This document shows positions 3,912 to 26,472 of a stretch of DNA of 64,000 nt, one piece after another. The notes under the pieces are model-generated. The model was given only the letters and a program-made list of their open reading frames with translations, made no database searches and had not been told where the DNA came from. The stretch lies in NCBI GenBank assembly GCA_000146465.1, contig CP001949.1; one strand, given 5' to 3'. The translations under genes were made by a program, and so were the position numbers. The first letter of the stretch is position 1, and each line of letters begins with the position of its first letter.

Positions 3912-4876
3912 ATGGAGAAGAATCAGGCCGAGCCAGAAAAGAACATAAGTTACACAAAACTTGCATTTTTCTTTTTCGTAATAAGAACAGTAGTAATAGG
4001 TCTGGCCTTACTATCGGGACCATACTTTGCACTAGATGACGAAACAACAACATTCAAGATGTTTATAATTTTCTTGGACATAACAAACATATTACAGTTT
4101 ATATTTCAATGGGACATAATTCAGCGTAAGATTCTATTTCAATATCTTCTATATATTCCTGTCCTTGCTTACTCTCTGACTCTTACAATCACGTTAATAG
4201 TTGATGCACACAATACTAACAGTTGTAACTTCAAAGTAGAAGGTAAAATTAAGAAATTAGCTATTGGATATATCTATACATATATGGGAATTCTTCTTGG
4301 GGAAGTTGCTCTCCTTCCAATCATATACAGAAGACTCAAGAGTGACTTTATGTGGGCAAACTTCAAAAAGCTAGGAGCTAACACAGCTATTAATGGTAAG
4401 TGGAGATAAGTAATTTTAGATGCCTTCGGGAGGAGAGAACAGTTTAGTGCAATAAGAAGATTTATGTTGATTTTTCTGTGTGGAGAAGTTGCAAGTTTCA
4501 ATATAAGCATAAGAGATAACAAAGATGTCTTCTTTTTTGTAGCAGGGACACAGATATTTGTGATTTTCCTTTCTTTTATATTTTTCAACGAAGAATATGT
4601 ACATCAGAGAAGGTTTCTTCTGGGATTTTCCGGACTGTGTACATTAGGAGGAATAGCATACACTGTGATTTATATTGTTATGGCTAGTAGGAGTAGCGAA
4701 ATAAGAAAGTAAGTGAAGATGTTAATTTTAGAGGAGTTATTTCCGAAATTGTATTCTATACAATTACAATGCTTATTTTCTTTGTTGGAGCCTTTAGGGA
4801 TTATCAGACATTTGGGAAGGGACTAAAAGATTATTATAGTGGAAGTCTTGGAATAAGAAAAAAACTCACACCTTAG
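3912..4876 (+). CDS. Three-exon multi-pass membrane protein, ~305 aa after splicing; exons 3912..4395, 4420..4708 and 4732..4876
   Basis: ORFs 3912..4409 and 4464..4712 each end at a TAA embedded in GTAAGT. Removing introns 4396..4419 and 4709..4731 joins both in frame to a third exon that stops at TAG 4874..4876. All three exons encode hydrophobic helices. Confidence 0.55.
4396..4419 (+). other. Spliceosomal intron 1 (24 nt) gtaagtggagataagtaattttag
   Basis: Canonical GTAAGT 5' splice site and TAATTTTAG 3' end. Removing it restores the reading frame across the two ORFs. Confidence 0.55.
4709..4731 (+). other. Spliceosomal intron 2 (23 nt) gtaagtgaagatgttaattttag
   Basis: Same GTAAGTG...TAATTTTAG architecture. 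The apparent stop TAA at 4710..4712 lies inside it, and the downstream exon stays open for 47 codons with a transmembrane-like segment. Confidence 0.45.
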
Positions 4877-4894
4877 GCAGAGCAGAATACTTTT

Positions 4895-5298
4895 CCACGA
4901 GACAATAAAAACCAAAGACTTTATTTCTCTTGGGGACTCCCCGCATACACCGTCATCCGGCTGTTCCCCAACACCTTCTCAATCACCCCCTCAGACGCTA
5001 GGTGCCGCAACACATTCTCCGCAACCCCGAGGTTCAGATTGTACTTGCTCCCAACACCATACCGCGTCACAACACTCGCTCGGCACACATCCTTGCGCAC
5101 CTTCGACAGGAGCTCCTCGGTCACCGTCACTCCCCTGCGCACTTCCTCCTTCTTCTTTCCGTCGCTCCACTTCTTCTTGTCCTTCCTTGTTCCAGACATG
5201 GCCTTGAGTGCCTTCTTCTCCTTCGACTCCTGGATCTTCTTGGCCATTTGTGGGAGTCCAATTTTCCCACTTCAAATCCCATCCCAGAAACTCCCAAA
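4895..5298. repeat. Left arm of a ~404-bp inverted repeat carrying a complete RPS25 gene; the right arm is at 6723..7127
   Basis: The reverse complement of 4895..5298 matches 6723..7127 at both boundaries. The encoded 108-aa RPS25 ORFs and the antisense shadow ORFs are identical in both arms. Confidence 0.8.
4921..5247 (-). CDS. RPS25: 40S ribosomal protein S25 (eS25), copy A
   Basis: 108 aa MAKKIQESKEKKALKAMSG...VTRYGVGSKYNLNLG..., the typical eS25 lysine-rich N-terminus and conserved core. Confidence 0.85.
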   Translation of the reverse strand: MAKKIQESKEKKALKAMSGTRKDKKKWSDGKKKEEVRRGVTVTEELLSKVRKDVCRASVVTRYGVGSKYNLNLGVAENVLRHLASEGVIEKVLGNSRMTVYAGSPQEK

Positions 5299-5365
5299 GA
5301 AGCCCATAGCCTCCGAATGCCAGGAGTGGATTTCTGGATTGGAAAAATTTGCCCTCAATCTAAAG

Positions 5366-5812
5366 ATGGCAAAGATGCATTCTAGCGGAAGAGGACGCTC
5401 GGGGAGCGTTAAGCCGTATGCAACAGTGTTTCCAACATGGCTGACAAAGACGGCTGATGAAATTAAGGCCGATGTTATCCAGATGGGAAACAAGGGGATT
5501 CCTGCACCTGATATAGGGAAAAAGCTAAGAGACGAATATGGAGTCGGAAATGCCAAGGACGTCCTGGGGTGTGAAATCACAAAGTTCCTTGAAGAGAATG
5601 GGGCATCTCCAAAGATCCCATTTGATCTTGAGTCTCTGGTTCGCCGAGCGAACACCCTCCGAAGTCACTTGAACATCTATAGGAAAGACAACTCTGCAAA
5701 ATACAGACTTATCCTTGTTTCATCCCGGATGTATCGTGTTGCAAGGTACTACAAGCGCAAGATGAGGATTCCAGGGAACTGGAAGCCAAAGCTTGTTGAG
5801 CTCATTAAATGA
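5366..5812 (+). CDS. RPS13: 40S ribosomal protein S13 (uS15)
   Basis: MAKMHSSGRGRSGSVKPY...RLILVSSRMYRVARYYKRKMRIPGNWK is a hallmark S13 sequence. ORF 5039..5812 is trimmed to the internal ATG at 5366, which sits behind a ggaaaaatttgccc upstream motif. Confidence 0.85.
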   Translation: MAKMHSSGRGRSGSVKPYATVFPTWLTKTADEIKADVIQMGNKGIPAPDIGKKLRDEYGVGNAKDVLGCEITKFLEENGASPKIPFDLESLVRRANTLRSHLNIYRKDNSAKYRLILVSSRMYRVARYYKRKMRIPGNWKPKLVELIK

Positions 5813-5930
5813 TCTTCTTGAAGTCTCGAACTGGCTGTTTCAAGGCCACCTCTGTGTGTTTTTGACGTCTTTCCAACAGGCGATTTTATTTGCGAAGAGA
5901 GGTATATTTTGTGAAAAACAAACCCCGTGA

Positions 5931-6626
5931 ATGTATGAGGAGCTCTTGAACTTTCTGCTGGCGAGGAAGAAGAGGCTGCTGTCTGAGGAAGAGGCCGATA
6001 GACTTATGGAGCTTATTACCCAGTCGATGGAAGCCAGAGAGGGCCGGGAAGGGAAAGAGGACAATACAGCATTGATAAGGAAGATCCTCGAAAATGTGGA
6101 TATGGACCAAGCTTACGAAACAGACACTGAGAGCATGGAAAATGCTATGGAAGATTTGCTTTTTGATGGCTACAGCAGCGAAATTTACAGCAACGATACT
6201 ATAGACTTGAGCGAGTCTGACAACGACACAGAGCCTCTGTCTGAGCGGAAGTTCCAGAGAGGAGAGTTTAGAGCTGGAGTGAAGGCTTCTGAGAATGAAG
6301 AGGAGCCGAAGAGGAGGATTGGGCTCAAAGACAAAGCAAAAGAAGGGGAATGGAAGGATCTGTCGGGAGGGAAGGATAACGATCTCCAACCACCAAAGGA
6401 TAGCACAGGAGTTCTGTCGGAGGATGGGGAAGGCCCCAAGAGAAGGGAATTCAAGCTCCCTGGATTTAGTAAGGAGAAGAAGGAGAGATCATTTGAGATG
6501 AGGGATGGCGGGGACTTTAACTTGCCAGGGTCTGTGGAATTTGAGTTTGATCTCGGAGAACTAAAGAAGGTGAATAATACCGGGCCGAATGTGAAGTTTT
6601 TCGACGAGGATGGAGAAGAGATCTGA
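5931..6626 (+). CDS. Hypothetical acidic, low-complexity protein (231 aa)
   Basis: ORF with D/E/S-rich composition lying between RPS13 and the right repeat arm. Confidence 0.4.
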   Translation: MYEELLNFLLARKKRLLSEEEADRLMELITQSMEAREGREGKEDNTALIRKILENVDMDQAYETDTESMENAMEDLLFDGYSSEIYSNDTIDLSESDNDTEPLSERKFQRGEFRAGVKASENEEEPKRRIGLKDKAKEGEWKDLSGGKDNDLQPPKDSTGVLSEDGEGPKRREFKLPGFSKEKKERSFEMRDGGDFNLPGSVEFEFDLGELKKVNNTGPNVKFFDEDGEEI

Positions 6627-6722
6627 AAGTCTTTGGTTTTGAATGTAGAGTAATAGTGACTGTTTTATGGATGAATTATCTTTATTAAAGTAGCAAGTTC
6701 TCTCAATGATTGTGTTTTTTCT

Positions 6723-7127
6723 TTTGGGAGTTTCTGGGATGGGATTTGAAGTGGGAAAATTGGACTCCCACAAATGGCCAAGAAGATCCAGGAGTCGAAG
6801 GAGAAGAAGGCACTCAAGGCCATGTCTGGAACAAGGAAGGACAAGAAGAAGTGGAGCGACGGAAAGAAGAAGGAGGAAGTGCGCAGGGGAGTGACGGTGA
6901 CCGAGGAGCTCCTGTCGAAGGTGCGCAAGGATGTGTGCCGAGCGAGTGTTGTGACGCGGTATGGTGTTGGGAGCAAGTACAATCTGAACCTCGGGGTTGC
7001 GGAGAATGTGTTGCGGCACCTAGCGTCTGAGGGGGTGATTGAGAAGGTGTTGGGGAACAGCCGGATGACGGTGTATGCGGGGAGTCCCCAAGAGAAATAA
7101 AGTCTTTGGTTTTTATTGTCTCGTGGC
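6723..7127. repeat. Right arm of the inverted repeat; identical RPS25 copy
   Basis: See the left arm; boundaries determined by base-level comparison. Confidence 0.8.
6774..7100 (+). CDS. RPS25: 40S ribosomal protein S25 (eS25), copy B
   Basis: Identical 108-aa protein to copy A, on the opposite strand. Confidence 0.85.
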   Translation: MAKKIQESKEKKALKAMSGTRKDKKKWSDGKKKEEVRRGVTVTEELLSKVRKDVCRASVVTRYGVGSKYNLNLGVAENVLRHLASEGVIEKVLGNSRMTVYAGSPQEK

Positions 7128-7192
7128 AGCATTGGAACTTTTCTGTTGAGTGGCTGTTATCTTAAAATATCGCATTAAAAATTTACCCCACA

Positions 7193-8674
7193 ATGACATA
7201 CAGAGGGTATAGTGGAGATAGAAGAGGGTTTCGGACGTCGCCCAGATTTGACAGAGGGGGCAGATATCCTCCTCGGGAAAGACGTGAGGGACAGAGATAC
7301 GATCCTCTTCCAGAGCTTCCTCCTGTGGAGTTTCAGAAGAACTTCTACAAGGAGGCGGAGTCTATCAGTAGAATGAGTTCGCGCGATGTCGATTCGTTCA
7401 GGAAGACAAACGAGATGACGGTCAAGGGGATGGATATTCCACATCCGATCAGCCGGTTTGAGGAGGCAGGGTTTCCCTCTAGGATTGTGGAGGAGCTTGA
7501 AGGAAAGGGATTCAGTGGGCCCACGCCTATCCAAGCACAAGGATGGCCGATGGCATTAAGCGGAAGGGATATGGTAGGGATTGCACAGACTGGATCTGGA
7601 AAGACACTGAGTTTTATTCTTCCTGGGCTTGTGCATGCAAAGGATCAGCAGCCTCTGCGAAGAGGGGACGGGCCTATTGCGCTTGTGCTTGCGCCGACTC
7701 GGGAGCTTGTGATGCAAATCAAGAAAGTTGCCGACGAGTTCTGTGGGATGTTTGGACTAAGGAGTACAGCGGTTTATGGAGGAGCTTCATCGCAGCCACA
7801 AATAAAGGCTTTGCATGAGGGGGTAGAAATAGTTATTGCAACTCCTGGAAGGTTGATTGACCTGCATGAGCAAGGGCATGCACCGCTTAGCAGAGTGACA
7901 TTCCTTGTTCTTGACGAGGCCGACAGGATGCTTGACATGGGGTTTGAGCCGCAGCTCCGAAAGATTATTCCAAAGACAAATGGAAACAGACAGACATTAA
8001 TGTGGAGTGCAACATGGCCGAGAGAGGTGCGAGGACTGGCAGAAAGCTACATGAATGATTACATTCAAGTGGTTGTTGGAAATGAAGAGCTTAAGACAAA
8101 CAGCAAGATCAAGCAAGTGATTGAAGTCTGTAGTGGACGTGAGAAGGAGGACAAGCTGCTTGGAGTTCTTGACAAATTCAAGGGAGACAAGGTCATTGTG
8201 TTCTGCAACATGAAAAGAACATGCGACGATTTGGAGTATGTTCTGAATAGATCTGGGTATGGGGCTGCAGCATTGCATGGAGACAAATCGCAGAACATTC
8301 GAGATAAAGTTCTTGATGACTTCCGATCAGGGAGGAGGCCGATTCTAATTGCCACAGAGGTTGCAGGAAGAGGACTTGATGTAAATGACGTCAAGCTTGT
8401 GATCAACTTCGACTTCCCAGGGACATGCGAGGACTATGTGCATCGAATTGGAAGGACGGCAAGAGGCAACACAAAGGAGGGGATATCGCATACATTCTTT
8501 ACAATCAACGACAAAGGAAATGCACGGGAGCTGATCCGGATGCTAAGAGAAGCCAATCAGACGGTTCCTTCTGATCTCGAGGACATGGTGAGAGTGTCGA
8601 ACGATAGATATGGATCCAGGGGTGTCAAACACGACTACAGAGGAAGACCTGGGAGATTTCCTTATCGAGGATGA
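7193..8674 (+). CDS. DBP2: DEAD-box ATP-dependent RNA helicase, Dbp2/p68 type
   Basis: Q-motif (GFSGPTPIQAQ), AQTGSGKT, PTRELV, DEAD (LVLDEADRM), SAT, HRIGRTAR, and an RGG-like N-terminus. Confidence 0.9.
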   Translation: MTYRGYSGDRRGFRTSPRFDRGGRYPPRERREGQRYDPLPELPPVEFQKNFYKEAESISRMSSRDVDSFRKTNEMTVKGMDIPHPISRFEEAGFPSRIVEELEGKGFSGPTPIQAQGWPMALSGRDMVGIAQTGSGKTLSFILPGLVHAKDQQPLRRGDGPIALVLAPTRELVMQIKKVADEFCGMFGLRSTAVYGGASSQPQIKALHEGVEIVIATPGRLIDLHEQGHAPLSRVTFLVLDEADRMLDMGFEPQLRKIIPKTNGNRQTLMWSATWPREVRGLAESYMNDYIQVVVGNEELKTNSKIKQVIEVCSGREKEDKLLGVLDKFKGDKVIVFCNMKRTCDDLEYVLNRSGYGAAALHGDKSQNIRDKVLDDFRSGRRPILIATEVAGRGLDVNDVKLVINFDFPGTCEDYVHRIGRTARGNTKEGISHTFFTINDKGNARELIRMLREANQTVPSDLEDMVRVSNDRYGSRGVKHDYRGRPGRFPYRG

Positions 8675-8813
8675 TCTCCAGATTGGACAACTCAAAAACA
8701 AAAGATACTGAATGAACCAGGGGATCCTTGGCTCTCGGAAGTTACCTTCTACTTTGGAGAGAAGCCAGATAAAATTCATCAAATAAAATTTTGTTTAATA
8801 TAATCTTCAGGGC

Positions 8814-10493
8814 TTAGCATAGGTCCTTGACCATGTACGGGCCCTCCAGGACATACCCAAACTTGGAGTAGTAGTTCCTGGTCCCTACTCCCGAGATAAT
8901 TGCGATCTTGCTTGATCCATGCTCGTCCCTTGCAATCCTCTCGGCTTCGGCTATCAGGAGTGTGCCATATCCCCGGTGCTGGTACTTTCTTTCATCGCTC
9001 TTGTTTATGGCCACCGCACTCCCGTACACGTGGAGTTCTCTTATCATGGATGCATTTCCATTAACCACAGCAGGATGGTATTTCCCTCCCCGAGGACTTT
9101 CTCCACCTGTTTCCGAAGGTGGATCTAGGCCCTTCAACTCCTTTCGAAACGTGTCCACACTGCATTTGCGCAGCCTCAAAAGCCCTATCAAAATATCCTG
9201 CTTCACATCTTCATAGCTAAGGAATGTCTCCCAACCCTTGTTGGCCACATAATCTCTCCTCACAAGTTCTACTTCTTCTGGTAAGACACTTTCATGAATA
9301 TTCTTGATTCCAACCTCTCTAGTCCTTACATCTCTGCACCTTGTTCTGTAGTCCTTCATTCTGGCAAGTGCGAGTTCTCTTATGTTGCCGTGTTCCACCC
9401 CAGAGCTTACCAATGTCATCGGAATGTCTCTTTGCACTCTGTAGACTCTCATCCATGGAGGTACAAATGAAAGAATCCTTGCTAGGAGATCAATCAGCTC
9501 GTCGGGGGAATAGTTCTTATATTTGTTGTTCTTCCACAACTCAAAAAGTCCTGTCCCCTTAATTACGAGAGTAGGATATATCTTCAGCCCGTCACTCCGG
9601 AACCTAGGGTTATCGAAGTATTCTCGGAACTGTGCAAGATCCCTCTTCATAGGAACATTTGGAAGGTTAGGCATCATATGTGCAACTATCTTGAACCCGG
9701 CATCCTTAGAAAGCCCAAAGGATTCACACACACTTCCAACCGTGTGTCCTCTGTTGGTATCCAGGGCAACATCTTCATACACGCTTTGAACACCTATCTC
9801 AATCCTCGTGCATCCATAGCTTAGCATCTTACTGAGGTGTGGACGCACACAGAAATCCGGTCTTGTCTCTATTGTTATCCCAACACATTTCAACCGTCCT
9901 TCTGCTCCAACCCTCACTGCCTCTTCTACCGAGGCAGATGTATGCCCGCTCAGGGCATCATGCAGCCTTGAGATAAAGTGGTCTCTATAGGATTCGGGCA
10001 GGGACATAAACGTTCCCCCCATTATTATGTACTCGACTTTGTCCACATTATGCCCAAGGCTTTTGAGTTGCTTGAGTCTTTCTCGTGCTTGCTCAAATGG
10101 ATCATATCTACTTCTTATGGCTCTCATGCTTGTCGGCTCATATCCCGTGTACGATTGTGTAGAATATTCAAAGTCGGAGTCGGGGCCTCCAGGGCAGTAT
10201 ACACATATGTTCCCCGTTAGTGCTATGTGGGGGCATCTGTGGGGCTTGCACATCACTGCAACAACAGCAACCCCAGATGCAGTCCTAACCGGCTTCACCC
10301 TAAGCTGCTGAATCAGATGCCCATACTCGGGTGGAATAAACGAGATTATGTCCACCACACGCGGAGTAGCCCCGAGGTTGTACTTCTTGCACACCCTGGA
10401 CTTGATTGCATTCACATCTATCTTCTTCTCTTGCTTGTAGAGTCTAATGATCTCGCCAGAAATTTCGTTACATGCCTTGAGGAAGTCGGACAT
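8814..10493 (-). CDS. ELP3: Elongator complex catalytic subunit Elp3 (radical SAM plus GNAT acetyltransferase)
   Basis: 559 aa with a radical-SAM Cys cluster ([17 protein letters not shown]) and a C-terminal GNAT region. Full-length collinear Elp3 architecture. Confidence 0.9.
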
Positions 10494-10619
10494 TCTTGGG
10501 GAGGATGGAGTCTGGAATTAATTCCTTAGAAAGAGGAGTTGGGCTTCCATGTGAGCAATGGGCAATGCTGGCTGGAAGTGCACTTTGGGATATTTTGTAT
10601 TCGATTTTGAGCCCCGAAG

Positions 10620-13079
10620 ATGCAGGCTTCTCTGTACCTAAACACATCAACACGGATGAGGAAAGACGAGATAATGCAGAAGCTGGGGTCGAACAACGAG
10701 GAGGACAAGGCTGAAGGAATGAAACAGATAATAGCACAGATGAGCCAGGGAGAGGACTTTGGCTCTCTTACACACAAAGTAACAAAGGAGACCTTAGTGG
10801 TGAAGAGCAACGAGCTTAAGAGGCTATTCTATTACTATCTAGAGCTACTTCCGAAATCCAGAGGATCTCAGTCGTTTGAGGAGATACTTCTTCTGTCTAA
10901 TCAAGTTCGAAAGGATCTTGAGCATCCAAATGAGTATGTCCGAGGGTTTGTAATGAGATTTGTCAGTACTCTGGACGACCAGGAACTTGTAGGGAACTTC
11001 TACAAGTTGATCAAAGACAACCTCAACCATCCGAACGCATATGTTCGAAGAAATGCATACTTCTGTCTTGGAGAGATCTTCCTGAAGATGGACACATACA
11101 AGGAAATTCCAGACCTTCTGTACCATGCACTGCTCAGAGACCTGGATCCAAACTGTTTGCGGGAGGCCTTTGTCTCTCTGCACCAGACGGATCCAGACTT
11201 GGCATTGAAGTATGCTAACGAGGTGGACTTGTCGATACCAAGCGAGCTTTCCACGGCCATCATAGAGAAGACTAGCGACCCAGGCCTTCTGGAGAGGTTC
11301 CTTTTTTCCGGGGATTTCCAAACGGCGCTTGAAGCGGGGATATCGATTCACAGGATTAGTAGCGACGAAGAGTTGTTGAAGAGAAGTACAGACACCATAC
11401 TGAGGTGTCTTGCAGATCTTCCCGAATTCAGAGAATATGCTGTTGACGAGCTTCTGCTCTCCACATACTCGTTTTCAGGATATGCAATGAGCTTCTTGGA
11501 ACTTATAGACCCGTACGACTTGAGTCTTTGTTCAAAGTGCCTGGACCTTGCTTTCAAGATTGCAGAGACCCACGAGTTTCTGCGAATCTCCGAGTTCCTG
11601 GGATCGAAGTTCATTGATACTCATGATGCATCATCGCAGAACCAGAACTTCAAGGTGCTTCTCCTGAAGAAGATGGCATACTTTGCTGATGTCTATTCAT
11701 CCTACAGCGAAGAGATGATTTCTGAGTCATTGAAAAACATTGTGTCGGACAATCCGGAGATGAGCTATGGATCCTTGGTATTTCTCTCCTCTTGCTTCGA
11801 GGTCATGAGGAAGAATACTATGCCTGGGCAGAGAGAAACAATAGGATATATCGGCCATCTGAAGACATTGGTGAATAAGATAAACGCGGTGAAGTATGGG
11901 AAGATATTGAGGTGCTGTTTTGAGGTTCTTAGGAAATATGCCACAAAGGAGATCTTCCTCAGTACTGTTGAGATGCTGGACTGTTCGTTTGAGCTTTCCA
12001 GCAAGCCTTTGTATTTAGAAAACACACAGACGTTTTTGGGAGCATTTATGTGCATTGAATTGGCTAAGATGTGCAAGACATTTGGAGAAGACCAAAAGGA
12101 CAGGGTTATTGGGATCATGCTAAAGTTTGTTGAATACGGGAAGGAAAGCAAGACTATCGATGTGAGTTCCCATTCGACAATAATATCATGTATTAGATCT
12201 CTGATGTCTTGTGATGAGGAGGTGGGGATTGAGTTTGATAGGCAAGTACGGTGCAGGGAGAATGTTCTGGACCCTATTGTACTTCCTGGGGTGCGACCCG
12301 GTGATGAAAGGAATCAAAATAAGCTTTGCGAGTTTCTGAGAAAGGATGAAGGCGGGAGCGGAGAAATGAGGAATGTAACCCAGCTGACAGGGCTGTCGGA
12401 TCCCATCTATGTTGAGGCCACTACAAGTTACACCCGGCACGAGGTTGTGATGGATATGCTTCTTATCAACCAGACCTCGTCCTATCTTCAAAACATACTA
12501 CTGGACTTTGTGACCAGCCAGGGATTTAATGCAACATTCATCAACACGCCGTTTTCGTTGTCCAGTAGGTCAGTGGTGACCAAGAGATTTACATTCAGAA
12601 TCATCGAAGGATCGAATGGGTTTATAAGTGGATCCATAACCTTCAGGTATCCTGACGAATGTGGAGAGTATGCCAACACGGTGTATACAATCAATTTGGC
12701 GGAGGTAAGAACGGCAGTGTCGGAGTTTCTCGAGCCAAAGAAGATGGACTCTGACGAATTCCGAGAGACGTGGAAGGAGCTTGAGTGGGAAAACACATAC
12801 ACACTCAAGTTTGTTACCAGAAGAACCTTGGAAGAGATATTTGAGGAGGTGAGCAAGGTCCTGAACGGGGAGATACTGGACATCGAGTACGACGAGAGCT
12901 ATGCTGTTGGGAACATAGCTTGTATGACTCTCCAGAACGTATGTGTGCTGATCAATGTATGTCTTAGAAAAGGGGAGTATGTGCACTTTGAATCTAGGAT
13001 CCGTAGCAGAAGGGAGGGGATAGTAAAGTCTGTAAGCGCAGTGGTTGGGGATGTCCTGAAGTCGCTTAAGAATAAATGA
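10620..13079 (+). CDS. SEC26: Coatomer beta subunit (COPB1/Sec26)
   Basis: The N-terminus matches the COPB adaptin N-domain (...LEHPNEYVRGFVMRFVSTL...NHPNAYVRRNAYFCLGEIF). The true start may be the internal Met at ~10653. Confidence 0.8.
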   Translation: MQASLYLNTSTRMRKDEIMQKLGSNNEEDKAEGMKQIIAQMSQGEDFGSLTHKVTKETLVVKSNELKRLFYYYLELLPKSRGSQSFEEILLLSNQVRKDLEHPNEYVRGFVMRFVSTLDDQELVGNFYKLIKDNLNHPNAYVRRNAYFCLGEIFLKMDTYKEIPDLLYHALLRDLDPNCLREAFVSLHQTDPDLALKYANEVDLSIPSELSTAIIEKTSDPGLLERFLFSGDFQTALEAGISIHRISSDEELLKRSTDTILRCLADLPEFREYAVDELLLSTYSFSGYAMSFLELIDPYDLSLCSKCLDLAFKIAETHEFLRISEFLGSKFIDTHDASSQNQNFKVLLLKKMAYFADVYSSYSEEMISESLKNIVSDNPEMSYGSLVFLSSCFEVMRKNTMPGQRETIGYIGHLKTLVNKINAVKYGKILRCCFEVLRKYATKEIFLSTVEMLDCSFELSSKPLYLENTQTFLGAFMCIELAKMCKTFGEDQKDRVIGIMLKFVEYGKESKTIDVSSHSTIISCIRSLMSCDEEVGIEFDRQVRCRENVLDPIVLPGVRPGDERNQNKLCEFLRKDEGGSGEMRNVTQLTGLSDPIYVEATTSYTRHEVVMDMLLINQTSSYLQNILLDFVTSQGFNATFINTPFSLSSRSVVTKRFTFRIIEGSNGFISGSITFRYPDECGEYANTVYTINLAEVRTAVSEFLEPKKMDSDEFRETWKELEWENTYTLKFVTRRTLEEIFEEVSKVLNGEILDIEYDESYAVGNIACMTLQNVCVLINVCLRKGEYVHFESRIRSRREGIVKSVSAVVGDVLKSLKNK

Positions 13080-17578: not shown

Positions 17579-17713
17579 TTTTGTTTATCTTGGAGAAAGG
17601 GAATTGTGGTAACTGTAAATGGCTCAAACAGATTTTGAAACAGATCAAGGGAGACAAGTACAAAGAGAAGAATAATCAAAACACTTAATTAACATTCTTC
17701 TGGCAACTCGAAA

Positions 17714-18640: not shown

Positions 18641-18713
18641 TTTCCTGTCCTGATACTCAAGACAAGTAAGATACAAAGCTTTAGACCACGTCAAGAATAA
18701 AACTGGTTTATTG

Positions 18714-19154: not shown

Positions 19155-19211
19155 ATTTCCGGGGCTTCTGTCGAAATTTTTTTCTAGAGAGATGTTCGCC
19201 CTAGAACTTCA

Positions 19212-19442: not shown

Positions 19443-19536
19443 TCTGTATAGTGGGATGGAACCCAGATGGATTTACCCTGTTTTAAAGTCTCTTTGATAG
19501 ACTTCTTGGATAACAATTATATGCAGACCCCATCAG

Positions 19537-19911
19537 ATGAAGCCGTTTCTTCTAGGCCTCCTCAAGTGCAAAAGATGTTCGTTTACATCAAGACTAGTTC
19601 CTCGATGCGAAAAGGTGAAGAGAAGCAGCATAGATGGAAATGCAAAGATTTTCAACAAGCATACGTTTACAGAGAATGGAGGAGAGAGACTCAAACTTCT
19701 TGTTGAAAGTCTACAGGGCTTTTTTGGCAATTTACTTTCGGAGCAGGAGATCGGATCCTTTGTCGAGGATCCAGACGACGATGAAAGGATAAAGGAGCTT
19801 TTGTTTGGAGTCGATGTTGTAGAGGGAAGCCTGACGTGTGATGAATGCGGCCTTATATACCCGATTAGGGATTCCATTGTGGAGACAGTCGATACTCTTG
19901 AATCTAAATAA
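19537..19911 (+). CDS. TRM112: Trm112-like methyltransferase activator
   Basis: N-terminal MKxxLLxLLxC, and a C-terminal zinc-ribbon-like GSLTCDECGLIYPIRDSI that matches the Trm112 C-terminus. Confidence 0.65.
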   Translation: MKPFLLGLLKCKRCSFTSRLVPRCEKVKRSSIDGNAKIFNKHTFTENGGERLKLLVESLQGFFGNLLSEQEIGSFVEDPDDDERIKELLFGVDVVEGSLTCDECGLIYPIRDSIVETVDTLESK

Positions 19912-19974
19912 AATGTTTTTCATGATTGGTGAGTTGATCGTTTCTAGAGAAATCTCTCTCCATTAGCCCTTGGA

Positions 19975-22770
19975 ATGTCGGACATAGAGGCCTTTGTGGC
20001 TTTTTACGAGCATCTGAAGTCTCAAGGAAAGGGAGATTCCGAGCTCCGGAGCGAGGAGCTGGAGAGGGCCATGAGGGAGATGCTGAGGAGAGCAAAGATA
20101 ACGGACTTTAAGGAGTATGCACGAAGTTACAAGTACAAGAGGAGGGAGCTGAGTGGTTTTCAGGAAGTACTGGTGTGGGGAAAGAGGAATTCCATATGGA
20201 ATGGAATGGGAGACATGTTTAGAAGCAGTATGGAGCTTCTCGGGCATTCTGGACAGGTTGATAGAATATGCTTTGACCAAGGAAATAGATTCTTTATGTC
20301 TGGAGGCTCTGATGGAATGATCAAGCTCTGGGACATTTACTCAGGGCTTTTGGTATACAGCTTCATAGGCCACCGAAACCTTGTGAGCGACCTTTGTGTT
20401 AGTAGTGATGGGAAAGTCCTTGTTTCGTGTGATTCCCACGGATTACTGAGCATCTGGTCCTTGGAGAGGTTTGAAATGCTCCTCCAGCTTGAACTGGAAT
20501 GCGAGATTGTCTTTACCGAATTTTTTGACACAGACGACCTATCTACCTATAATCTGATTGTTGTTTTGTCGAAGGGTGTTATCAAGACATACAGGTTTGA
20601 TGAGAGAAGGATAGTGTCTGAGTCTGAAAACCTTTGTCTTCTTGACGAGTCCATCAAGGGCCTGTGCTTTACAGATGGGGGAAGGTTTCTTCTGTGTAGT
20701 GGATGGTGGCCATTTCTTGTTGTCTTCGACACCCAGAACTCCGATGGATGCATAGTTCTTGAGACAAATGGAATGCCGGTGAATACCATATGCGGATCGA
20801 AGAAGGGTCTTAAGATAGCAGCAGCGTGCGACTCTCAAATATTCCAATGGACATTCTTTGCAGAGGGAAATCCTGGAATGGGAAACTTCAAAAGGAGAAC
20901 AAAGGACACGTCGTTAGAGGGACACTGGAAAAGATCTATCACCAAGATTGACATTGGGGAGAACGAGTCGATCGAGAGGATATGCTATCTCCGGGACAAT
21001 TTTCTCGTTTGCATATGCACTGATTTGAAGATAAGGATATTTGCGGGATCTGAGCTTAGATGCATAATAGACATACCGGAAATGGGGATTGCATATCCAC
21101 ATCCTCTGGAGAACATATTTGCCCTCTGCGGTAGTAGCCTTCGAATATATAGCATGGACAAGCTGATCTACGAGGAGATGCTGAGCTTTGCAGCCAATGA
21201 TGGCCAGTTTTCGAATGATGGAGAGTTCTTTGTGTTTGGAGACGAAAGAGGAGTGGTAAGGGTACTTTCGATGAGTTTCCTACCAAAGCCACCGAAGGAG
21301 CAGTTTTTTGAATCCGACCTTGACCACCTTAACTCTACTGAGTGGAATGGAGTTGTTGAGTGCAGGAGAGAATCCACTTATGAGTCGGATAGAAAGAGGA
21401 ACGAAGATTGGTTCCAAGTGGAATATGCCATTACAAAGAAGTCCAACGACTGTGTAAAGGTTGAGGATCTGGGATCAAAGCACTTTGTGAAAGACTTTGT
21501 AGGTCTTGAAGCATTCCGAAAAAAGTACATGAACATTCCCTTGCCTGGGGAGACACAGTCTGTGGAGCAGACAATGATATCTGAGTATAGCAGCAGCATC
21601 CTAGAGGGAGACACATCCAGTGGGTTTTACGAGGAATCTACAGACATGACAGGAGATGAAGAAATATTGTTTGAAGACAAAGGGGCACCTGTAAGAAGAT
21701 CCCTTGTTATCAGTGATGAGTCCTCGGAGATGGTGCCTGTTTTGAGAAGAAACACCCGGGTCTCGGAGGATGTTGAGAACGATTTAAGTCCAACAGGAAT
21801 TGTAAGAAGGTTAAGGAGATTCAATAGAGACCAGGCTGTGGAGGATGAAGAAAACGGAATCCGCATTCTGTCGCTAGAGGGAGGGGACGGTATGGACAGG
21901 AGGGGTGCTGAGCATTGTGCAGGACCTCGTAGTAGTATTAACGACAGCGAAAGAAGTGAACTAGCAGAAAACAGTGATGACCGATATGTGATTGGATTGT
22001 CTGGAGGGATAGGGCATGGAGAGCAGGAGCTAAGGCAGTATGTTCAATCGTGGCTGTCGTCTCCAAGTATGGTACCTCAGCCGGGAGATGTTGTTTACCT
22101 AAACTCCGAAGGCCTGAGAGAATTTCAAATGTTTGATGGGAGAAAGAAGTTTAAGGGGCAAGAAATATGCTCTGGATACTACGAAGTGAGAAGTCTTGAG
22201 GCAGTCAGGTACAGCCCACCATTTCTTAAGGTGGGGCTGGGCCTTAGAGACGAGAGCTTTTCGATAAGATACTACAGGTATCCTGGATCATCTCCTGTGC
22301 TCTTGTTAAGAGAACAGATGAATGCTGGGGCAGGGGATTTTATAAGTTTTGTGTCAAATGGGATAATATCTCGAGGAAGGGTGTCTGGAGTTCGAGGAAT
22401 CCATCTTGTAGTTGATTCTGGAGGGACTTCTGTCCTGGTTGAGAGGCTGGACATGTTAATTCCAAGGGCATTATTTCCTGGGGATATGAAGACCGAGATG
22501 TTAAAAGTACTCAGGCAAAGGAGAATGCACAGAGGACTTTACGTAACCCTGAGAAGAGAGTCAAATCCGTCTTACTACGAGAATGCAACTTCTACTGTCA
22601 ACCTAGGGATTATTGAAGAAAAGATCCTCCACGACTTATATCGGACAATAGGTGGACTGGAGTTTGATCTTGACATGGCAGTTAGTAACTCATTATATTT
22701 GGGGCCAGTTCTTCATGAGCATTGTCAGCAGGCTGTGGAAGGGGTCCGAACGATTATAAGAAGGATTTGA
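19975..22770 (+). CDS. Large WD40-repeat protein (931 aa) with an N-terminal WD propeller; function unknown
   Basis: WD repeats (GHSGQVDRICFDQ...SGGSDGMIKLWDI...) followed by a long non-repetitive C-terminal region. Confidence 0.5.
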   Translation: MSDIEAFVAFYEHLKSQGKGDSELRSEELERAMREMLRRAKITDFKEYARSYKYKRRELSGFQEVLVWGKRNSIWNGMGDMFRSSMELLGHSGQVDRICFDQGNRFFMSGGSDGMIKLWDIYSGLLVYSFIGHRNLVSDLCVSSDGKVLVSCDSHGLLSIWSLERFEMLLQLELECEIVFTEFFDTDDLSTYNLIVVLSKGVIKTYRFDERRIVSESENLCLLDESIKGLCFTDGGRFLLCSGWWPFLVVFDTQNSDGCIVLETNGMPVNTICGSKKGLKIAAACDSQIFQWTFFAEGNPGMGNFKRRTKDTSLEGHWKRSITKIDIGENESIERICYLRDNFLVCICTDLKIRIFAGSELRCIIDIPEMGIAYPHPLENIFALCGSSLRIYSMDKLIYEEMLSFAANDGQFSNDGEFFVFGDERGVVRVLSMSFLPKPPKEQFFESDLDHLNSTEWNGVVECRRESTYESDRKRNEDWFQVEYAITKKSNDCVKVEDLGSKHFVKDFVGLEAFRKKYMNIPLPGETQSVEQTMISEYSSSILEGDTSSGFYEESTDMTGDEEILFEDKGAPVRRSLVISDESSEMVPVLRRNTRVSEDVENDLSPTGIVRRLRRFNRDQAVEDEENGIRILSLEGGDGMDRRGAEHCAGPRSSINDSERSELAENSDDRYVIGLSGGIGHGEQELRQYVQSWLSSPSMVPQPGDVVYLNSEGLREFQMFDGRKKFKGQEICSGYYEVRSLEAVRYSPPFLKVGLGLRDESFSIRYYRYPGSSPVLLLREQMNAGAGDFISFVSNGIISRGRVSGVRGIHLVVDSGGTSVLVERLDMLIPRALFPGDMKTEMLKVLRQRRMHRGLYVTLRRESNPSYYENATSTVNLGIIEEKILHDLYRTIGGLEFDLDMAVSNSLYLGPVLHEHCQQAVEGVRTIIRRI

Positions 22771-22808
22771 GGGTTGCGGACATGTAATCAAGGGCTGGGG
22801 TTACCCTG

Positions 22809-23525
22809 ATGTACTACGACGTGAATATTAGTCTGGATTATCCAAAGCAAGATATCGAGGAGCTGGAGAAAAGTGAATACGAAGGGTTTTGTGTGAATAA
22901 GACTATGAGGCCCAAGGACCTCGAAAGACTTTCCCATGGATCTCTTGAGTTTCCTGGGGCAAAGCGTTACTACAACCGTGCGGAGATTGTATTTGGAGAG
23001 GGAGAGCAGATTGGATACGACTTTAGAAAAGCAATGAGATATGATCTGTTTGTTGTGAAGCTGAGCGGGACAGAGGGAATGGATAAGATAATAAAACATC
23101 AGCCAGATATGATTACATTTGACTATGGTGGAAAAGTCCTTCCATTTAAGCCCGGACTTGTCAAGACGGCAATCAGGGAAGGCATATTCTTTGAGATACC
23201 GATGAGAGAGGGCTTGAGAGGAGGGTCTTTAACCATCATGTGGATCCGGAATGTACGGAGACTGCTGTTTATTACAAATGGGAAGAACATTGTAGTTAGC
23301 AGTGGGGCCCAATGCTCCATGGAGATTAAGAAAGTCAGAGATGTTGTTAAGATGCTTGAGATGTTTGGACTTGGGGAGAAAAGAGCACTGGAAGTGATGC
23401 TCAACTCGGAGAGGCTTTTAAAGAGGTGTGCAATGAAAAGGCATTGCTACAGAGACTCGATTGTGCACAGTGTGGATGAAGGGGCCCTAAAAAGGGACTT
23501 TGTACTGTCTCTGTACAAAAATTGA
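22809..23525 (+). CDS. RNase P/MRP protein subunit Rpp30 (Rpp1)-like, paralog A
   Basis: PHP/TIM-barrel Rpp30 pattern: YDVNIS..., ITFDY, FFEIPM, NIVVSSGAQCSMEIKKVRDVVKMLEMFGL. Confidence 0.65.
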   Translation: MYYDVNISLDYPKQDIEELEKSEYEGFCVNKTMRPKDLERLSHGSLEFPGAKRYYNRAEIVFGEGEQIGYDFRKAMRYDLFVVKLSGTEGMDKIIKHQPDMITFDYGGKVLPFKPGLVKTAIREGIFFEIPMREGLRGGSLTIMWIRNVRRLLFITNGKNIVVSSGAQCSMEIKKVRDVVKMLEMFGLGEKRALEVMLNSERLLKRCAMKRHCYRDSIVHSVDEGALKRDFVLSLYKN

Positions 23526-23589
23526 TTTTTTACAAAATAAAGTCTACGACTAATAAGACTTGTATTTTTGATTACCTTTCCAAGGCTCG

Positions 23590-24243
23590 ATGTTCTTTGA
23601 TGTAAATGTAAGTAACAGATGCCCAAGAGGGGATCTGGATGTTTTAAAGGAGCTTGGATGGGATGGAATCTGCATAAACACTGTTGTTGGCTTGGACAAC
23701 CTGGAAGGATGGAGCAGTCCCCTTCTTGATGTGTGGAAGGACGAGAAGGCCTATGAGAGGATAGAGGTAAGATACAAGGATAATGAGAAGTGGAGTGAAG
23801 TTAGAAAGATGGTGAATCCTGATGTGCTTTCGGTGAGAATAGAAGGGGTTGAAGACTTTAAGAAAGCTCTCGAGGTTTCTCCAGACGTGATTACATTTGA
23901 TTATTCCAGGAGCTTCTGTCTCGGAAAGGACGAAGTTTTTGAAGCTGTGAAGAGAAATATATTTCTTGAGATTCCATTGGTGTGTGGGATGTATGGCCAG
24001 AGAAACAAAGTTGTATGGATGAGAAATGCCAGAAAACTTGTGGAGATCACGGGGGGAGTGAATGTTGTGGTTGGGAGCGGGGCGTCATGTTGTACAGAGA
24101 TGAGAAGTTCCCATGACATTATAAAGATATTGGGAGGACTTGGAACGAGTGGAGACTGTGGAAGGAAGATACTGCAGAACTCTGGGAGGCTGATCAGGTC
24201 CTGCAGAATAAGAAAAGGATGTGTTATGAAGGAAGAGATATGA
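23590..24243 (+). CDS. RNase P/MRP protein subunit Rpp30-like, paralog B (divergent tandem copy)
   Basis: Same collinear motifs (FDVNVS, ITFDY, FLEIPL, NVVVGSGASCCTEMRSSHDIIKILGGLG), about 30% identical to paralog A. Confidence 0.6.
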   Translation: MFFDVNVSNRCPRGDLDVLKELGWDGICINTVVGLDNLEGWSSPLLDVWKDEKAYERIEVRYKDNEKWSEVRKMVNPDVLSVRIEGVEDFKKALEVSPDVITFDYSRSFCLGKDEVFEAVKRNIFLEIPLVCGMYGQRNKVVWMRNARKLVEITGGVNVVVGSGASCCTEMRSSHDIIKILGGLGTSGDCGRKILQNSGRLIRSCRIRKGCVMKEEI

Positions 24244-24327
24244 TTGGTTCCTTGAAGATGAGATTCTGAAACATCTCTAGTTCTGTGACTACTGAGATAA
24301 ATAGAATTCTGAATCCAAACCAAAGGC

Positions 24328-25674
24328 ATGGGAGCAAGAAAAAACAGGATGAGAGGACGAGGTAGAATTCAAGGGGCTGGGAGAAGTATTGTTATTGAGA
24401 GAAGTGAGGTTAAGAAGGAAGAGAAGGCGGAAGGGAAGTTCAATGTCGATTTCCAGGAGCTTAACGAAGAACTATCTGGCATCGAATTAAAAGAGGAGAA
24501 TTCAAAGTGCTCTGATGTTGATGAGATGGTGTGTGAGAGAGTCTGCAAAGACGACAAAGTTGAGGAAGTACCTGAGGTATCCGAGATTAATAGGGAAAAT
24601 ACAGTGGATGAAGAGGTGGAGGCTGAGAAGAAGGAAGAGAATATCGAAAACAGAAAGGAAGAAGGAGAAGATGCTGTAAAAGCATCGCAAGCCCTCTATC
24701 CAGCAACACCCAGTGTATTGACCACTGTTATACCTCAGACACCAATGAGGAGGGTACTTCATGAGGAAGGAAGCCATCTTTTTGTTAAGGAGGAAAGTAT
24801 GGCTCTTCCTGGGAAGGTGATTATCAATAGGTATCCGGGACATTTGTTTATTCATATAGACCAGGTCGAGAGGTTCATGACATCCAGGAAGGAGGTGGAG
24901 AGTGTATCTATTAAGATTGAATCGAAGGGGATCTTCTATGAGACAAAGAAATATCCAGTGCAGCCGGACATAGGAATCAACGAGATGCTGCAAGTCCCCA
25001 TCAACAAGGCCGAGAGCAATGGAACACCTCTGAGATTTATACTTCTCCTGTACCACAGGTCTGGAAATATAGTAAAGTCGTGTGAAACTGTGCTTGTGGT
25101 TGACGGAAGTAGAATCCGCTCAATACATAACAATCTTCTCGAAAGTAGATTGGCATGGGACAACTATGTGTCGAGGAATCTATTTAAAAGCATTCGAAGC
25201 TTTTTTACAAGTGGAGCACCTGATGCATGGAGCCTGAAGATTTACTTGTCGTTTGTGTCGGACGATGAGCTTAGGTTGATTCCTGCGCCTCTTCCTCAGG
25301 ACCTTAAGTCCCTCAGCAAGTGGCTGGTGGTGAAGAAGTTTTCTTATAACATATGGTTTAGAGGATTTGTGAATGTCCGGGGAGATGTTGAAAAGGCATG
25401 TACCAACCTATGGAAGAGAAGATATGTTCGATGCTATGGATACATGATCTTTATATTTAACGAGCATTCGAGAAGCCTTGTTGGGACAATAAACCTCGTG
25501 GATGCAAGCTTTGATCCAAGCACGAGTAACAAGGTATATTTAGAGAACTTTCTTCGGATTAATGTTGGGGAGAAGGTGGTTGAGTTGCATTTTGACACAA
25601 AGGACAAATATAATACATGTAGGAGCGCACTTACCATGATGCTTCCACGAACACTGTTTCACAAGAAGGGGTGA
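24328..25674 (+). CDS. Hypothetical protein (448 aa) with a basic/acidic low-complexity N-terminus
   Basis: ORF only. Confidence 0.4.
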   Translation: MGARKNRMRGRGRIQGAGRSIVIERSEVKKEEKAEGKFNVDFQELNEELSGIELKEENSKCSDVDEMVCERVCKDDKVEEVPEVSEINRENTVDEEVEAEKKEENIENRKEEGEDAVKASQALYPATPSVLTTVIPQTPMRRVLHEEGSHLFVKEESMALPGKVIINRYPGHLFIHIDQVERFMTSRKEVESVSIKIESKGIFYETKKYPVQPDIGINEMLQVPINKAESNGTPLRFILLLYHRSGNIVKSCETVLVVDGSRIRSIHNNLLESRLAWDNYVSRNLFKSIRSFFTSGAPDAWSLKIYLSFVSDDELRLIPAPLPQDLKSLSKWLVVKKFSYNIWFRGFVNVRGDVEKACTNLWKRRYVRCYGYMIFIFNEHSRSLVGTINLVDASFDPSTSNKVYLENFLRINVGEKVVELHFDTKDKYNTCRSALTMMLPRTLFHKKG

Positions 25675-25806
25675 TCTGGCAGACGATGTGTTTCCTGAAA
25701 CCTATCTTATTAAAGAATTGAATACGGCCTTTCTCTATGTTCTGATGGAGGGAAGTTTTCCCGCCAAGCCTAAGGATTTCAAGAAAATCCAGGATCCTGG
25801 GAGTTT

Positions 25807-26112
25807 ATGCGGCCTGTTTTGAACGAGACAACGAATGCTACCAAAAGACTGGAGACAAAGAGTAAGGAAGGGGAAAGTGACAAGGGAAGGGTGCTCCACT
25901 TCCTGAAGGGTGTCTACGCAACGACCAGGGACTATTCGTTGAAGTATGACCTGAAGAAATGTATGGAGATAATTGAAGGGAAAGAGAACCAAGAGGTCAT
26001 CGACCTTAAGAATGCGTTGTCTGAAGCTCTTATAGAGAACGAGACGCTGTTTGCAGAGAAATGCGAGCTTGCAGTTACTCTGGAATGTATGAAAGCAGAA
26101 AGAAAGGAGTGA
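25807..26112 (+). CDS. Small hypothetical protein (101 aa)
   Basis: ORF inside an otherwise ORF-poor 840-bp stretch. Confidence 0.3.
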   Translation: MRPVLNETTNATKRLETKSKEGESDKGRVLHFLKGVYATTRDYSLKYDLKKCMEIIEGKENQEVIDLKNALSEALIENETLFAEKCELAVTLECMKAERKE

Positions 26113-26196
26113 TCACTGGACTCTGATATACATTAAAGGACTTATTTACTATTTGGTATTGAGAGATGGATTTTTGGCGGGACACCCCTCGGCTGA

Positions 26197-26472
26197 ATGG
26201 AGTTGCGATATAGATTGTAAGTGGAAGCAACTAATTTTAGGGTTTTTGGCAGAAAGGGTGTTCTGATCGAAGACCGAGCTCTGAAGGAGTTTGTGAGCGG
26301 GCTTATCCGGGGCTTTGGGGGCCTTGATTTGCTGAGCAGAGTTAGTGTAAGATGTGATGGAGGAGTGATCAATATCTCGGCGGACAAAGAGGCTTCTAGC
26401 ATTGTGCATGGATCTCTATTTCTCTGCGGAGAGTATAAGTCTGTTGGATGTAGATTTGAGCGAATCGATTAA
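26197..26472 (+). CDS. Two-exon small protein (~84 aa): exon 1 26197..26216, intron 26217..26240, exon 2 26241..26472
   Basis: ATGGAGTTGCGATATAGATT|gtaagtggaagcaactaattttag|G GTT TTT GGC... The splice fuses ATG plus 6 codons to ORF 26221..26472, which the ORF finder could only open with GTG. A CCCC motif lies just upstream of the ATG. Confidence 0.5.
26217..26240 (+). other. Spliceosomal intron (24 nt) gtaagtggaagcaactaattttag close to the 5' end of the gene
   Basis: Near-identical to the intron at 4396..4419: GTAAGTGGA...CTAATTTTAG. Confidence 0.5.

What the first reader, a model, noticed from the sequence alone, without database searches (positions are those of the whole stretch)
4396..26240. 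Family of three near-identical ultra-short introns (GTAAGTG...[ACT]TAATTTTAG, 23-24 nt)
Three sequences are almost the same element: 4396..4419 (gtaagtggagataagtaattttag), 4709..4731 (gtaagtgaagatgttaattttag) and 26217..26240 (gtaagtggaagcaactaattttag). In each, a canonical GTAAGT 5' splice site is followed about 10 nt later by a CTAAT/GTAAT branch-like site fused to TTTTAG. In all three cases removing the element restores a continuous reading frame into the next exon, and in two cases the stop codon that ends the upstream ORF lies inside the element. Microsporidia are known to retain a handful of extremely short introns of this constrained type, usually in ribosomal-protein genes. Here they sit in a membrane-protein gene and a tiny non-RP gene. 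A Prp6-like splicing factor at 1..1468 shows that at least part of the machinery is encoded nearby.
Basis: partly seen in the sequence, partly recalled or inferred. Interest (0 to 1): 0.7.

Follow-up and report, generated by a model that had tools for sequence, protein, structure and literature searches.

The report
Three known ultra-short microsporidian introns
The three 23-24-base elements are genuine tiny spliceosomal introns of the parasite Encephalitozoon intestinalis, but this intron type and these very introns are already published, so the only new point is that GenBank still truncates one of the two host genes.

Summary
GTAAGTN(6-20)TAATTTTAG occurs three times in the window, at the stated coordinates, against none in 100 shuffles. 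TAATTTTAG occurs nowhere else on either strand.

The window is Encephalitozoon intestinalis ATCC 50603, chromosome 8. Removing 4396-4419 and 4709-4731 joins three exons into a 305-aa membrane protein colinear with E. cuniculi ECU08_1030. Removing 26217-26240 joins a 7-codon first exon to an 83-aa protein with a Pop5 (RNase P/MRP subunit) fold.

All three introns sit at the same positions in four or five related species. The 5' GTAAGTG and the 3' TAAT-T(3-4)-AG are conserved and the core varies. Lengths differ between species (24/25 nt; 24/23/22 nt), so only exact excision keeps the reading frame.

This is the short intron class described in E. cuniculi. E. cuniculi GB-M1 annotates both genes with introns. 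A published E. intestinalis re-annotation (MicroAnnot supplement) lists CDSs of exactly these spans and spacing.

What remains is curation. All E. intestinalis GenBank records truncate Eint_081030 to 165 aa, and the E. hellem models use a wrong acceptor. The Prp6 claim is inconclusive.

Verdict: real, interpretation supported, already known, low interest.

The parts
3912..4395 (+). Gene 1 (Eint_081030 orthologue of ECU08_1030), exon 1, from ATG 3912; ends in phase 1
   Evidence: The unspliced ORF 3912-4409 is the 165-aa product carried by the GenBank E. intestinalis records.
4396..4419 (+). Intron 1, 24 nt, GTAAGTG...GTAATTTTAG. In-frame TAA at 4407-4409. Inferred branch A at 4413.
   Evidence: Orthologues are 24 nt (E. 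cuniculi), 25 nt (E. hellem) and 25 nt (Logan SRR23946965) at the same position.
4420..4708 (+). Gene 1, exon 2 (289 nt); ends in phase 2
   Evidence: 65-68% aa identity to the orthologues.
4709..4731 (+). Intron 2, 23 nt, GTAAGTG...TTAATTTTAG. In-frame TAA at 4710-4712. Inferred branch A at 4725. A second AG lies 2 nt downstream (4732-4733).
   Evidence: It is 23 nt in all four species; the Logan species has GTAGGT.
4732..4876 (+). Gene 1, exon 3 with stop TAG 4874-4876. It encodes the last hydrophobic helix.
   Evidence: (71-79% identity to the orthologues only in the spliced frame).
26197..26216 (+). Gene 2 (Pop5-like, 83 aa), exon 1: ATG plus 6 1/3 codons (MELRYR, then the first two bases of L); ends in phase 2
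   Evidence: 100% identical to the annotated KAL7349042.1; these residues form strand beta-1.
26217..26240 (+). Intron 3, 24 nt, GTAAGTG...CTAATTTTAG. In-frame TAA at 26218-26220. Inferred branch A at 26234.
   Evidence: Orthologues are 23 nt (E. cuniculi, E. romaleae, E. hellem) and 22 nt (Logan SRR21633403).
26241..26472 (+). Gene 2, exon 2 with stop TAA 26470-26472
   Evidence: No ATG opens this frame without exon 1.

Best explanation
These are three canonical U2-type (major-spliceosome) GT-AG introns of the short, highly constrained Encephalitozoon class, in E. intestinalis chromosome 8.

Two interrupt a 305-aa multi-pass membrane protein gene, the orthologue of ECU08_1030 (GenBank Eint_081030). 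One follows codon 7 of an 83-aa Pop5-like RNase P/MRP subunit gene.

Inferred mechanism, from established splicing biology:
- The 5' GTAAGT pairs with the ACUUAC(C) 5' end of the Encephalitozoon U1 snRNA.
- The xTAAT motif, placed 4 nt before the 3' AG, pairs with U2 and supplies the branch adenosine.
- Lariat formation and exon ligation remove exactly 24, 23 and 24 nt.

Sequence comparison shows that precise removal is what selection preserves. RNA-level excision in E. intestinalis is inferred, not shown here.

Any unspliced transcript terminates at a TAA inside the intron. That gives a 165-aa or 258-aa truncated membrane protein, or a 7-aa peptide. By analogy with E. cuniculi, splicing is probably inefficient.
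For: - Motif statistics: 3 matches against 0 in shuffles, and the 3' 9-mer is found only at these sites.
- Splicing gives a 305-aa product colinear with E. cuniculi ECU08_1030 across both junctions without gaps. The E. cuniculi gene span of 965 nt for 305 aa implies 47 nt of annotated introns, i.e. 24 + 23.
- Orthologous introns in 4 species (gene 1) and 5 species (gene 2) share invariant GTAAGTG (one GTAGGTG) and TAAT-T3-4-AG with variable cores. Lengths are 24/24/25/25, 23x4 and 24/23/23/23/22 nt.
- Identity per exon is 65-79% in the spliced frames.
- The spliced gene-2 product is 100% identical to the annotated E. intestinalis KAL7349042.1. It folds with pLDDT 87.8 into a Pop5-like fold whose first strand is exon-1 encoded.
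- The MicroAnnot supplement lists 'correct CDS boundaries' in its intron sheet for NC_014422 of 99912-100876 (965 nt) and 122197-122472 (276 nt). These match the spans and the 22,285-nt spacing seen here.
- Literature: Encephalitozoon U1 carries ACUUACC (PMC5499648). E. cuniculi introns are 22-76 nt with strict motifs, and all annotated ones were confirmed by RNA-seq (PMC3629993).
Against:
- I could not read the list of the 37 E. cuniculi introns (Lee et al. 2010 is not held; the figures are images). That ECU08_1030 and the Pop5-like gene are among the RNA-seq-confirmed ones therefore rests on the GB-M1 annotation.
- Short E. cuniculi introns are spliced at under 20% on average, so most transcripts may stay unspliced.
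- No snRNA gene lies in the window.
Confidence: 0.95

Rival explanations
1. Chance motif matches inside decaying or frameshifted genes (pseudogenes or assembly errors), with no splicing.
For: All E. intestinalis GenBank records annotate gene 1 as a 165-aa ORF that ends in the element. Pfam finds no family for either product.
Against: - There were no motif matches in 100 shuffles.
- The same interruptions are found in four E. intestinalis assemblies and in 3-4 other species.
- Exons downstream of the stops are as conserved as exon 1.
- Intron length changes between species never disturb the spliced frame.
- Gene 2 folds confidently as Pop5.
Confidence: 0.02
2. Copies of one mobile or recently propagated 'introner-like' element, i.e. 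a true sequence family related by descent, as the title 'near-identical family' suggests.
For: The three elements share 16-17 of 23-24 positions, including G at +7 and a purine-rich stretch after it.
Against: - The shared positions are exactly the 5' splice site and the branch/3' signals. The cores differ (GAGATAAG / AAGATGT / GAAGCAAC).
- Each intron is at a fixed orthologous position in E. cuniculi, E. hellem, E. romaleae and two unnamed relatives. They therefore predate the divergence of these species.
- There are no target-site duplications and no further copies in the window or in about 68 kb of fetched loci.
Confidence: 0.03
3. Recoding without splicing: stop-codon read-through plus programmed frameshifting across the elements.
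For: The elements are very short, and two of them are multiples of 3 in this species.
Against: - Each element has an in-frame TAA.
- Intron 2 is 23 nt.
- Orthologues of introns 1 and 3 are 25, 23 and 22 nt, so read-through would change frame in some species and not in others.
- The conserved sequences are splice signals, not slippery sites.
- E. cuniculi RNA-seq shows real splicing of this intron class.
Confidence: 0.01
4. They are real introns, but retention is the functional default: most transcripts stay unspliced, and the truncated products or the low yield of full-length protein serve as a form of regulation.
For: Short E. cuniculi introns average under 20% spliced, and 11 of 37 junctions change with time after infection (PMC3629993 and PMC6349667). 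Every one of the three introns carries an in-frame TAA.
Against: - Downstream exons are under the same constraint as upstream ones, so the full-length products matter.
- The in-frame TAA follows from GTAAGT itself in phase 2.
- The authors of the RNA-seq study favour an inefficient spliceosome.
Confidence: 0.1

Closest known systems
Short spliceosomal introns of Encephalitozoon cuniculi (Biderre 1998; Katinka 2001; Lee et al. 2010; Grisdale et al. 2013, PMC3629993)
   Same: GT-AG boundaries, a strict GTAAGT 5' site, a branch motif placed directly before a short T run and the AG, and a length of about 22-25 nt. They occur in ribosomal-protein and other genes, and they have been confirmed by RNA-seq in E. 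cuniculi.
   Different: Nothing of substance. These are the E. intestinalis orthologues. Splicing in E. intestinalis itself was not examined here.
ECU08_1030 (CAD26409.2, 305 aa) and the 83-aa gene at AL590448.1:140156-140430 in E. cuniculi GB-M1
   Same: The same genes, the same intron positions and phases, and nearly the same intron sequences (24, 23 and 23 nt).
   Different: Intron 3 is 1 nt longer in E. intestinalis. The proteins are 59-69% identical.
Curated E. intestinalis intron list in the MicroAnnot paper (PMC10815200, supplementary file 2)
   Same: It lists intron-containing CDSs at NC_014422:99912-100876 and 122197-122472, with the same lengths and spacing as the two genes here.
   Different: That correction has not reached GenBank for gene 1. 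Eint_081030 and its equivalents in the T2T and the three 2025 draft assemblies are still 165 aa.
Long conserved microsporidian introns in the poly-A-binding and S23 genes (Whelan et al. 2019, PMC6349667)
   Same: They are spliceosomal introns retained in reduced microsporidian genomes.
   Different: Those are about 76 nt with a conserved internal stem-loop and are spliced at about 80%. The three here are a third of that length with no room for internal structure.
Other ultra-short intron systems (Paramecium, chlorarachniophyte nucleomorphs; myxozoans, PMC13644364)
   Same: Intron lengths near the physical minimum, and frequent in-frame stops on retention.
   Different: These are independent lineages with thousands of introns and weaker branch-site signals. 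Encephalitozoon has fewer than 50 introns per genome, with very strict signals.

Membership tests
Encephalitozoon short U2-type spliceosomal introns | GT...AG boundaries with a GTAAGT 5' splice site complementary to the U1 5' end (ACUUAC) | tested here: met
   All three start with GTAAGTG and end with AG. The U1 motif is taken from PMC5499648.
Encephalitozoon short U2-type spliceosomal introns | Branch-point motif (xTAAT/C) immediately upstream of a short T run and the 3' AG | tested here: met
   GTAATTTTAG, TTAATTTTAG and CTAATTTTAG. The motif is conserved in all 14 orthologous copies, and also in the GTAGGT copy.
Encephalitozoon short U2-type spliceosomal introns | Length within the published range (22-76 nt; short class about 25 nt) | tested here: met
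   24, 23 and 24 nt; orthologues are 22-25 nt. The range is from PMC3629993.
Encephalitozoon short U2-type spliceosomal introns | Exact removal restores a reading frame that is colinear with orthologous proteins | tested here: met
Encephalitozoon short U2-type spliceosomal introns | Orthologous position conserved between species, with length changes that are tolerated only if the element is excised | tested here: met
   Intron 3 is 24, 23 and 22 nt, i.e. all three residues modulo 3.
Encephalitozoon short U2-type spliceosomal introns | Spliced junction observed in RNA | not testable with these tools
   No E. intestinalis transcript data were reachable, and the exact 305-aa product is not in the protein collection. 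For E. cuniculi, the literature states that all annotated introns are spliced, but the gene list could not be read.
Introner-like / mobile intron family | Many copies that share core sequence, with recent insertion (presence/absence between close relatives) | tested here: not met
   The cores differ and the positions are fixed across 4-5 species. There are no extra copies in the window or the fetched loci.
Pop5/Rpp14 RNase P/MRP protein (host gene 2) | Pop5 alpha-beta sandwich fold | tested here: met
   The model has pLDDT 87.8. The top Foldseek PDB hits are archaeal Pop5 (3wz0, 2czv, 2av5, 6k0a; TM 0.74-0.77, E down to 1.6e-4) and a yeast RNase MRP chain.
Pop5/Rpp14 RNase P/MRP protein (host gene 2) | Match to the Pfam RNase_P_Rpp14 profile or to PDB Pop5 sequences | tested here: not met
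   No Pfam family at E <= 1 and no Pop5 chain by phmmer. Only a UniRef name on the E. hellem orthologue points to it ('Ribonuclease P protein component 2').
Prp6/Prp1 splicing factor (gene at 1-1468, - strand) | PRP1_N domain followed by HAT/TPR repeats | tested here: inconclusive
   PRP1_N gives E 0.71 in the window fragment. In the E. cuniculi orthologue it gives E 0.022 at 15.6 bits, below the 22.4 cut-off, at the same residues 12-57. TPR_14 gives 24.4 bits in E. cuniculi. There is no PDB hit by sequence or by a 3-sequence profile.

The most novel reading that the evidence does not exclude
The invariant extended signals (G at +7 in 15 of 15 copies) and the spacing of only 6-10 nt between 5' site and branch motif (8-9 nt in the three window introns) may mean that U1 and U2 cannot occupy the intron in the usual way. 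In that case these introns would be recognised as a single composite site by the reduced Encephalitozoon spliceosome. The built-in TAA stops would make inefficient splicing a throttle on the dosage of a membrane protein and an RNase P subunit.
Probability: 0.1. Interest if true: 0.5.

Novelty: already known. Interest (0 to 1): 0.12.

Why it matters
It matters little for biology, because the intron class, its constraints and these particular introns have been described.

The practical value is curation:
- Eint_081030 and its equivalents in five E. intestinalis GenBank assemblies should be 305 aa with two introns, not 165 aa.
- The E. hellem orthologues should use the 23-nt intron 2.
- The small spliced gene can be named as a Pop5-like RNase P/MRP subunit.

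The case also shows that a simple pattern scan combined with a frame check recovers Encephalitozoon introns with high specificity.

Tried and rejected
- **Other intron candidates.** A relaxed intron scan (GT[AG][AT]GT...xTAA[CT]...AG up to 45 nt, both strands) found only one extra hit. That hit, 10934-10957, lies in frame inside a continuous coding sequence with no T-run, so it is chance. The candidate 58956-58993 (GTAAGT...TTTAG, 38 nt) sits at the natural stop of a gene just before RPL10 and has no branch motif, so I rejected it. TAATTTAG at 43355 (- strand) has no 5' site upstream, so I rejected it.
- **Rfam.** The scan of the window found no snRNA or any other family.
- **Pfam.** Both spliced products gave nothing.
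- **Gene 1 structure.** The prediction via E. cuniculi P0001 had pLDDT 46.5 and was too poor for a fold search.
- **Prp6.** Pfam, PDB phmmer and a PDB profile search all gave sub-threshold hits or nothing.
- **Literature.** Lee et al. 2010 could not be read. A full-text search for 'ECU08_1030' found no paper.
Full report
**1. Observation**

| Element | Coordinates | Sequence | Length |
|---|---|---|---|
| 1 | 4396-4419 | GTAAGTGGAGATAAGTAATTTTAG | 24 nt |
| 2 | 4709-4731 | GTAAGTGAAGATGTTAATTTTAG | 23 nt |
| 3 | 26217-26240 | GTAAGTGGAAGCAACTAATTTTAG | 24 nt |

- The composite pattern GTAAGTN{6,20}TAATTTTAG has 3 matches in the window and none in any of 100 dinucleotide-preserving shuffles.
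- The 3' nonamer TAATTTTAG occurs only three times on both strands. Each copy lies 8-9 nt downstream of one of the thirteen GTAAGT hexamers.
- Removing each element restores a reading frame.
- One correction: the in-frame stop lies inside the element in all three cases (TAA 4407-4409, 4710-4712 and 26218-26220), not two.

**2. Source of the window**

A DEAD-box protein encoded at 7193-8671 is found verbatim on NCBI contig JBLUPK010000019.1 of assembly GCA_051312795.1. The announcement paper identifies this assembly as Encephalitozoon intestinalis ATCC 50603, a short-read draft (PMC12697097).

**3. Gene 1**

Exons 3912-4395, 4420-4708 and 4732-4876 give a 305-aa protein with about eight hydrophobic helices. 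It aligns end to end, without gaps at either junction, with the 305-aa E. cuniculi protein ECU08_1030 at 69% identity (CAD26409.2). The E. cuniculi gene spans 965 nt for 305 codons, so its record already holds 47 nt of introns, i.e. 24 + 23.

DNA alignments show the same two introns at the same positions in E. cuniculi, E. hellem and an unnamed relative assembled from SRR23946965:
- Intron 1 is 24/24/25/25 nt.
- Intron 2 is 23 nt in all four. One copy has GTAGGT.

GTAAGTG and TAATTTTAG are invariant and the core varies. With these introns removed, all four species give 302-305-aa products. Identity to the window is 70-76% in exon 1, 65-68% in exon 2 and 71-79% in exon 3. The sequence beyond the stops is therefore under the same constraint as the sequence before them.

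The protein's family remains unknown. There is no Pfam hit and the structure model is poor (pLDDT 46.5).

**4. Gene 2**

ATG 26197 plus 20 nt of exon 1, joined to 26241-26472, gives an 83-aa protein.

- It is 100% identical to the annotated E. intestinalis KAL7349042.1. It has 83-aa orthologues in E. romaleae and E. hellem.
- E. cuniculi GB-M1 has an annotated 83-aa gene of 275 nt at the syntenic place.
- The intron is 24 nt in E. intestinalis. It is 23 nt in E. cuniculi, E. romaleae and E. hellem, and 22 nt in a more distant relative from SRR21633403. Exon 1 is always 20 nt and encodes M-x-x-R-Y-R/K-L.
- These three lengths cover all three residues modulo 3. Only exact excision can keep the frame.
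- Without exon 1 the conserved frame has no ATG.
- The protein models at pLDDT 87.8 as beta-alpha-beta-beta-alpha-beta. Its best PDB matches are archaeal Pop5 (TM 0.74-0.77) and a yeast RNase MRP subunit. The exon-1 residues form most of the first strand.
- Sequence profiles do not detect the family.

**5. Mechanism**

*Shown here:* selection preserves the splice signals and the spliced frames.

*From established knowledge and the literature:*
- Encephalitozoon U1 snRNA carries ACUUACC, complementary to (G)GUAAGU (PMC5499648).
- E. cuniculi introns are 22-76 nt with strict 5' and branch motifs, and all annotated ones were seen spliced in RNA-seq (PMC3629993).
- The short ones are spliced at under 20% on average (PMC6349667).

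*Inferred:*
- U2 pairs with xTAAT, with the branch A at 4413, 4725 and 26234.
- Exactly 24, 23 and 24 nt are removed as a lariat.
- Splicing is inefficient, and unspliced RNAs end at the internal TAA.

**6. Comparison with what is known**

This is the known short intron class.

For E. intestinalis itself, the MicroAnnot paper's supplementary intron sheet lists 'correct CDS boundaries' on NC_014422:
- 99912-100876, which is 965 nt.
- 122197-122472, which is 276 nt.

These match the spans of the two genes here (3912-4876 and 26197-26472) and their spacing of 22,285 nt. All three introns are therefore already published.

GenBank still lacks the correction for gene 1. Eint_081030 (ADM12035.1), the T2T model UTX45823.1 and the three 2025 drafts all carry the 165-aa read-through product.

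**7. Rivals**

- *Chance or pseudogene.* Excluded by the statistics and by the conservation across species and isolates.
- *Mobile 'introner' family.* Excluded because the shared bases are only the splice signals and the positions are old and fixed. No further copy occurs in the window or in about 68 kb of related loci.
- *Recoding without splicing.* Excluded by the length variation and the internal stops.
- *Functional intron retention.* Cannot be excluded, but nothing here supports it.

**8. Side claim**

The gene at 1-1468 (- strand) is the N-terminal 489 aa of a 679-aa protein. It gives only sub-threshold PRP1_N hits at the same residues in two orthologues (E 0.71 and 0.022), one borderline TPR hit and no PDB hit. 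'Prp6-like' is plausible but not shown.

**9. Verdict**

Interest is low, apart from the annotation fixes.

Noticed in passing
window 4895-5298 and 6723-7126: A perfect 404-nt inverted repeat. Each arm carries an identical RPS25 gene (4921-5247 on the - strand, 6774-7100 on the + strand). The arms flank a 1424-nt spacer with RPS13 and a 231-aa ORF. E. cuniculi and E. hellem have the same 100%-identical repeat (421 and 401 nt), but there the spacer genes lie in the opposite orientation. This is either a real flip-flop inversion or an orientation that 151-bp reads could not resolve.
   Followed up: partly
window 3912-4409; GenBank ADM12035.1, UTX45823.1, KAL7345302.1, KAL7347256.1, KAL7349212.1: Every E. 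intestinalis GenBank annotation in the collection gives this gene as a 165-aa protein that ends in intron 1 (GKWR*). The two-intron 305-aa model is absent from the protein collection.
   Followed up: yes
L003 3799-3823 (E. hellem CP075154.1); proteins P0002-P0004: The annotated E. hellem orthologues (296-300 aa) appear to use the AG 2 nt downstream of intron 2, giving a 25-nt intron. Their C-termini are therefore frameshifted and unrelated to E. cuniculi and E. intestinalis. Using the 23-nt intron gives a 305-aa protein that is 71% identical in exon 3. The same TTTTAGAG tandem acceptor is present in all four species.
   Followed up: partly
window 4402, 4715, 26223 and all orthologous loci (L002-L010): Intron position +7 is G in all 15 copies examined, and position +8 is a purine in 14 of 15. 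This conservation extends beyond the canonical GTAAGT hexamer and is not explained by the published ACUUACC U1 motif alone.
   Followed up: no
window 1-1468 (- strand): The N-terminal 489 aa of a 679-aa conserved protein. It has a weak, recurrent PRP1_N-like stretch at residues 12-57 (EEDEIYTAIEEKRKRK) and TPR-like repeats. It may be a diverged Prp6, but every hit is below the curated thresholds except one borderline TPR_14 hit in the E. cuniculi orthologue (24.4 bits against a 23.5 cut-off).
   Followed up: partly
L011 30-302 / L012 84-356 (E. cuniculi, E. hellem; about 5.7 kb upstream of the ECU08_1030 orthologue, probably just outside the window): A 90-aa PHF5 (SF3b subunit) gene lies in the same neighbourhood. 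A U2-snRNP component is therefore encoded near the intron-containing gene, presumably by coincidence.
   Followed up: no
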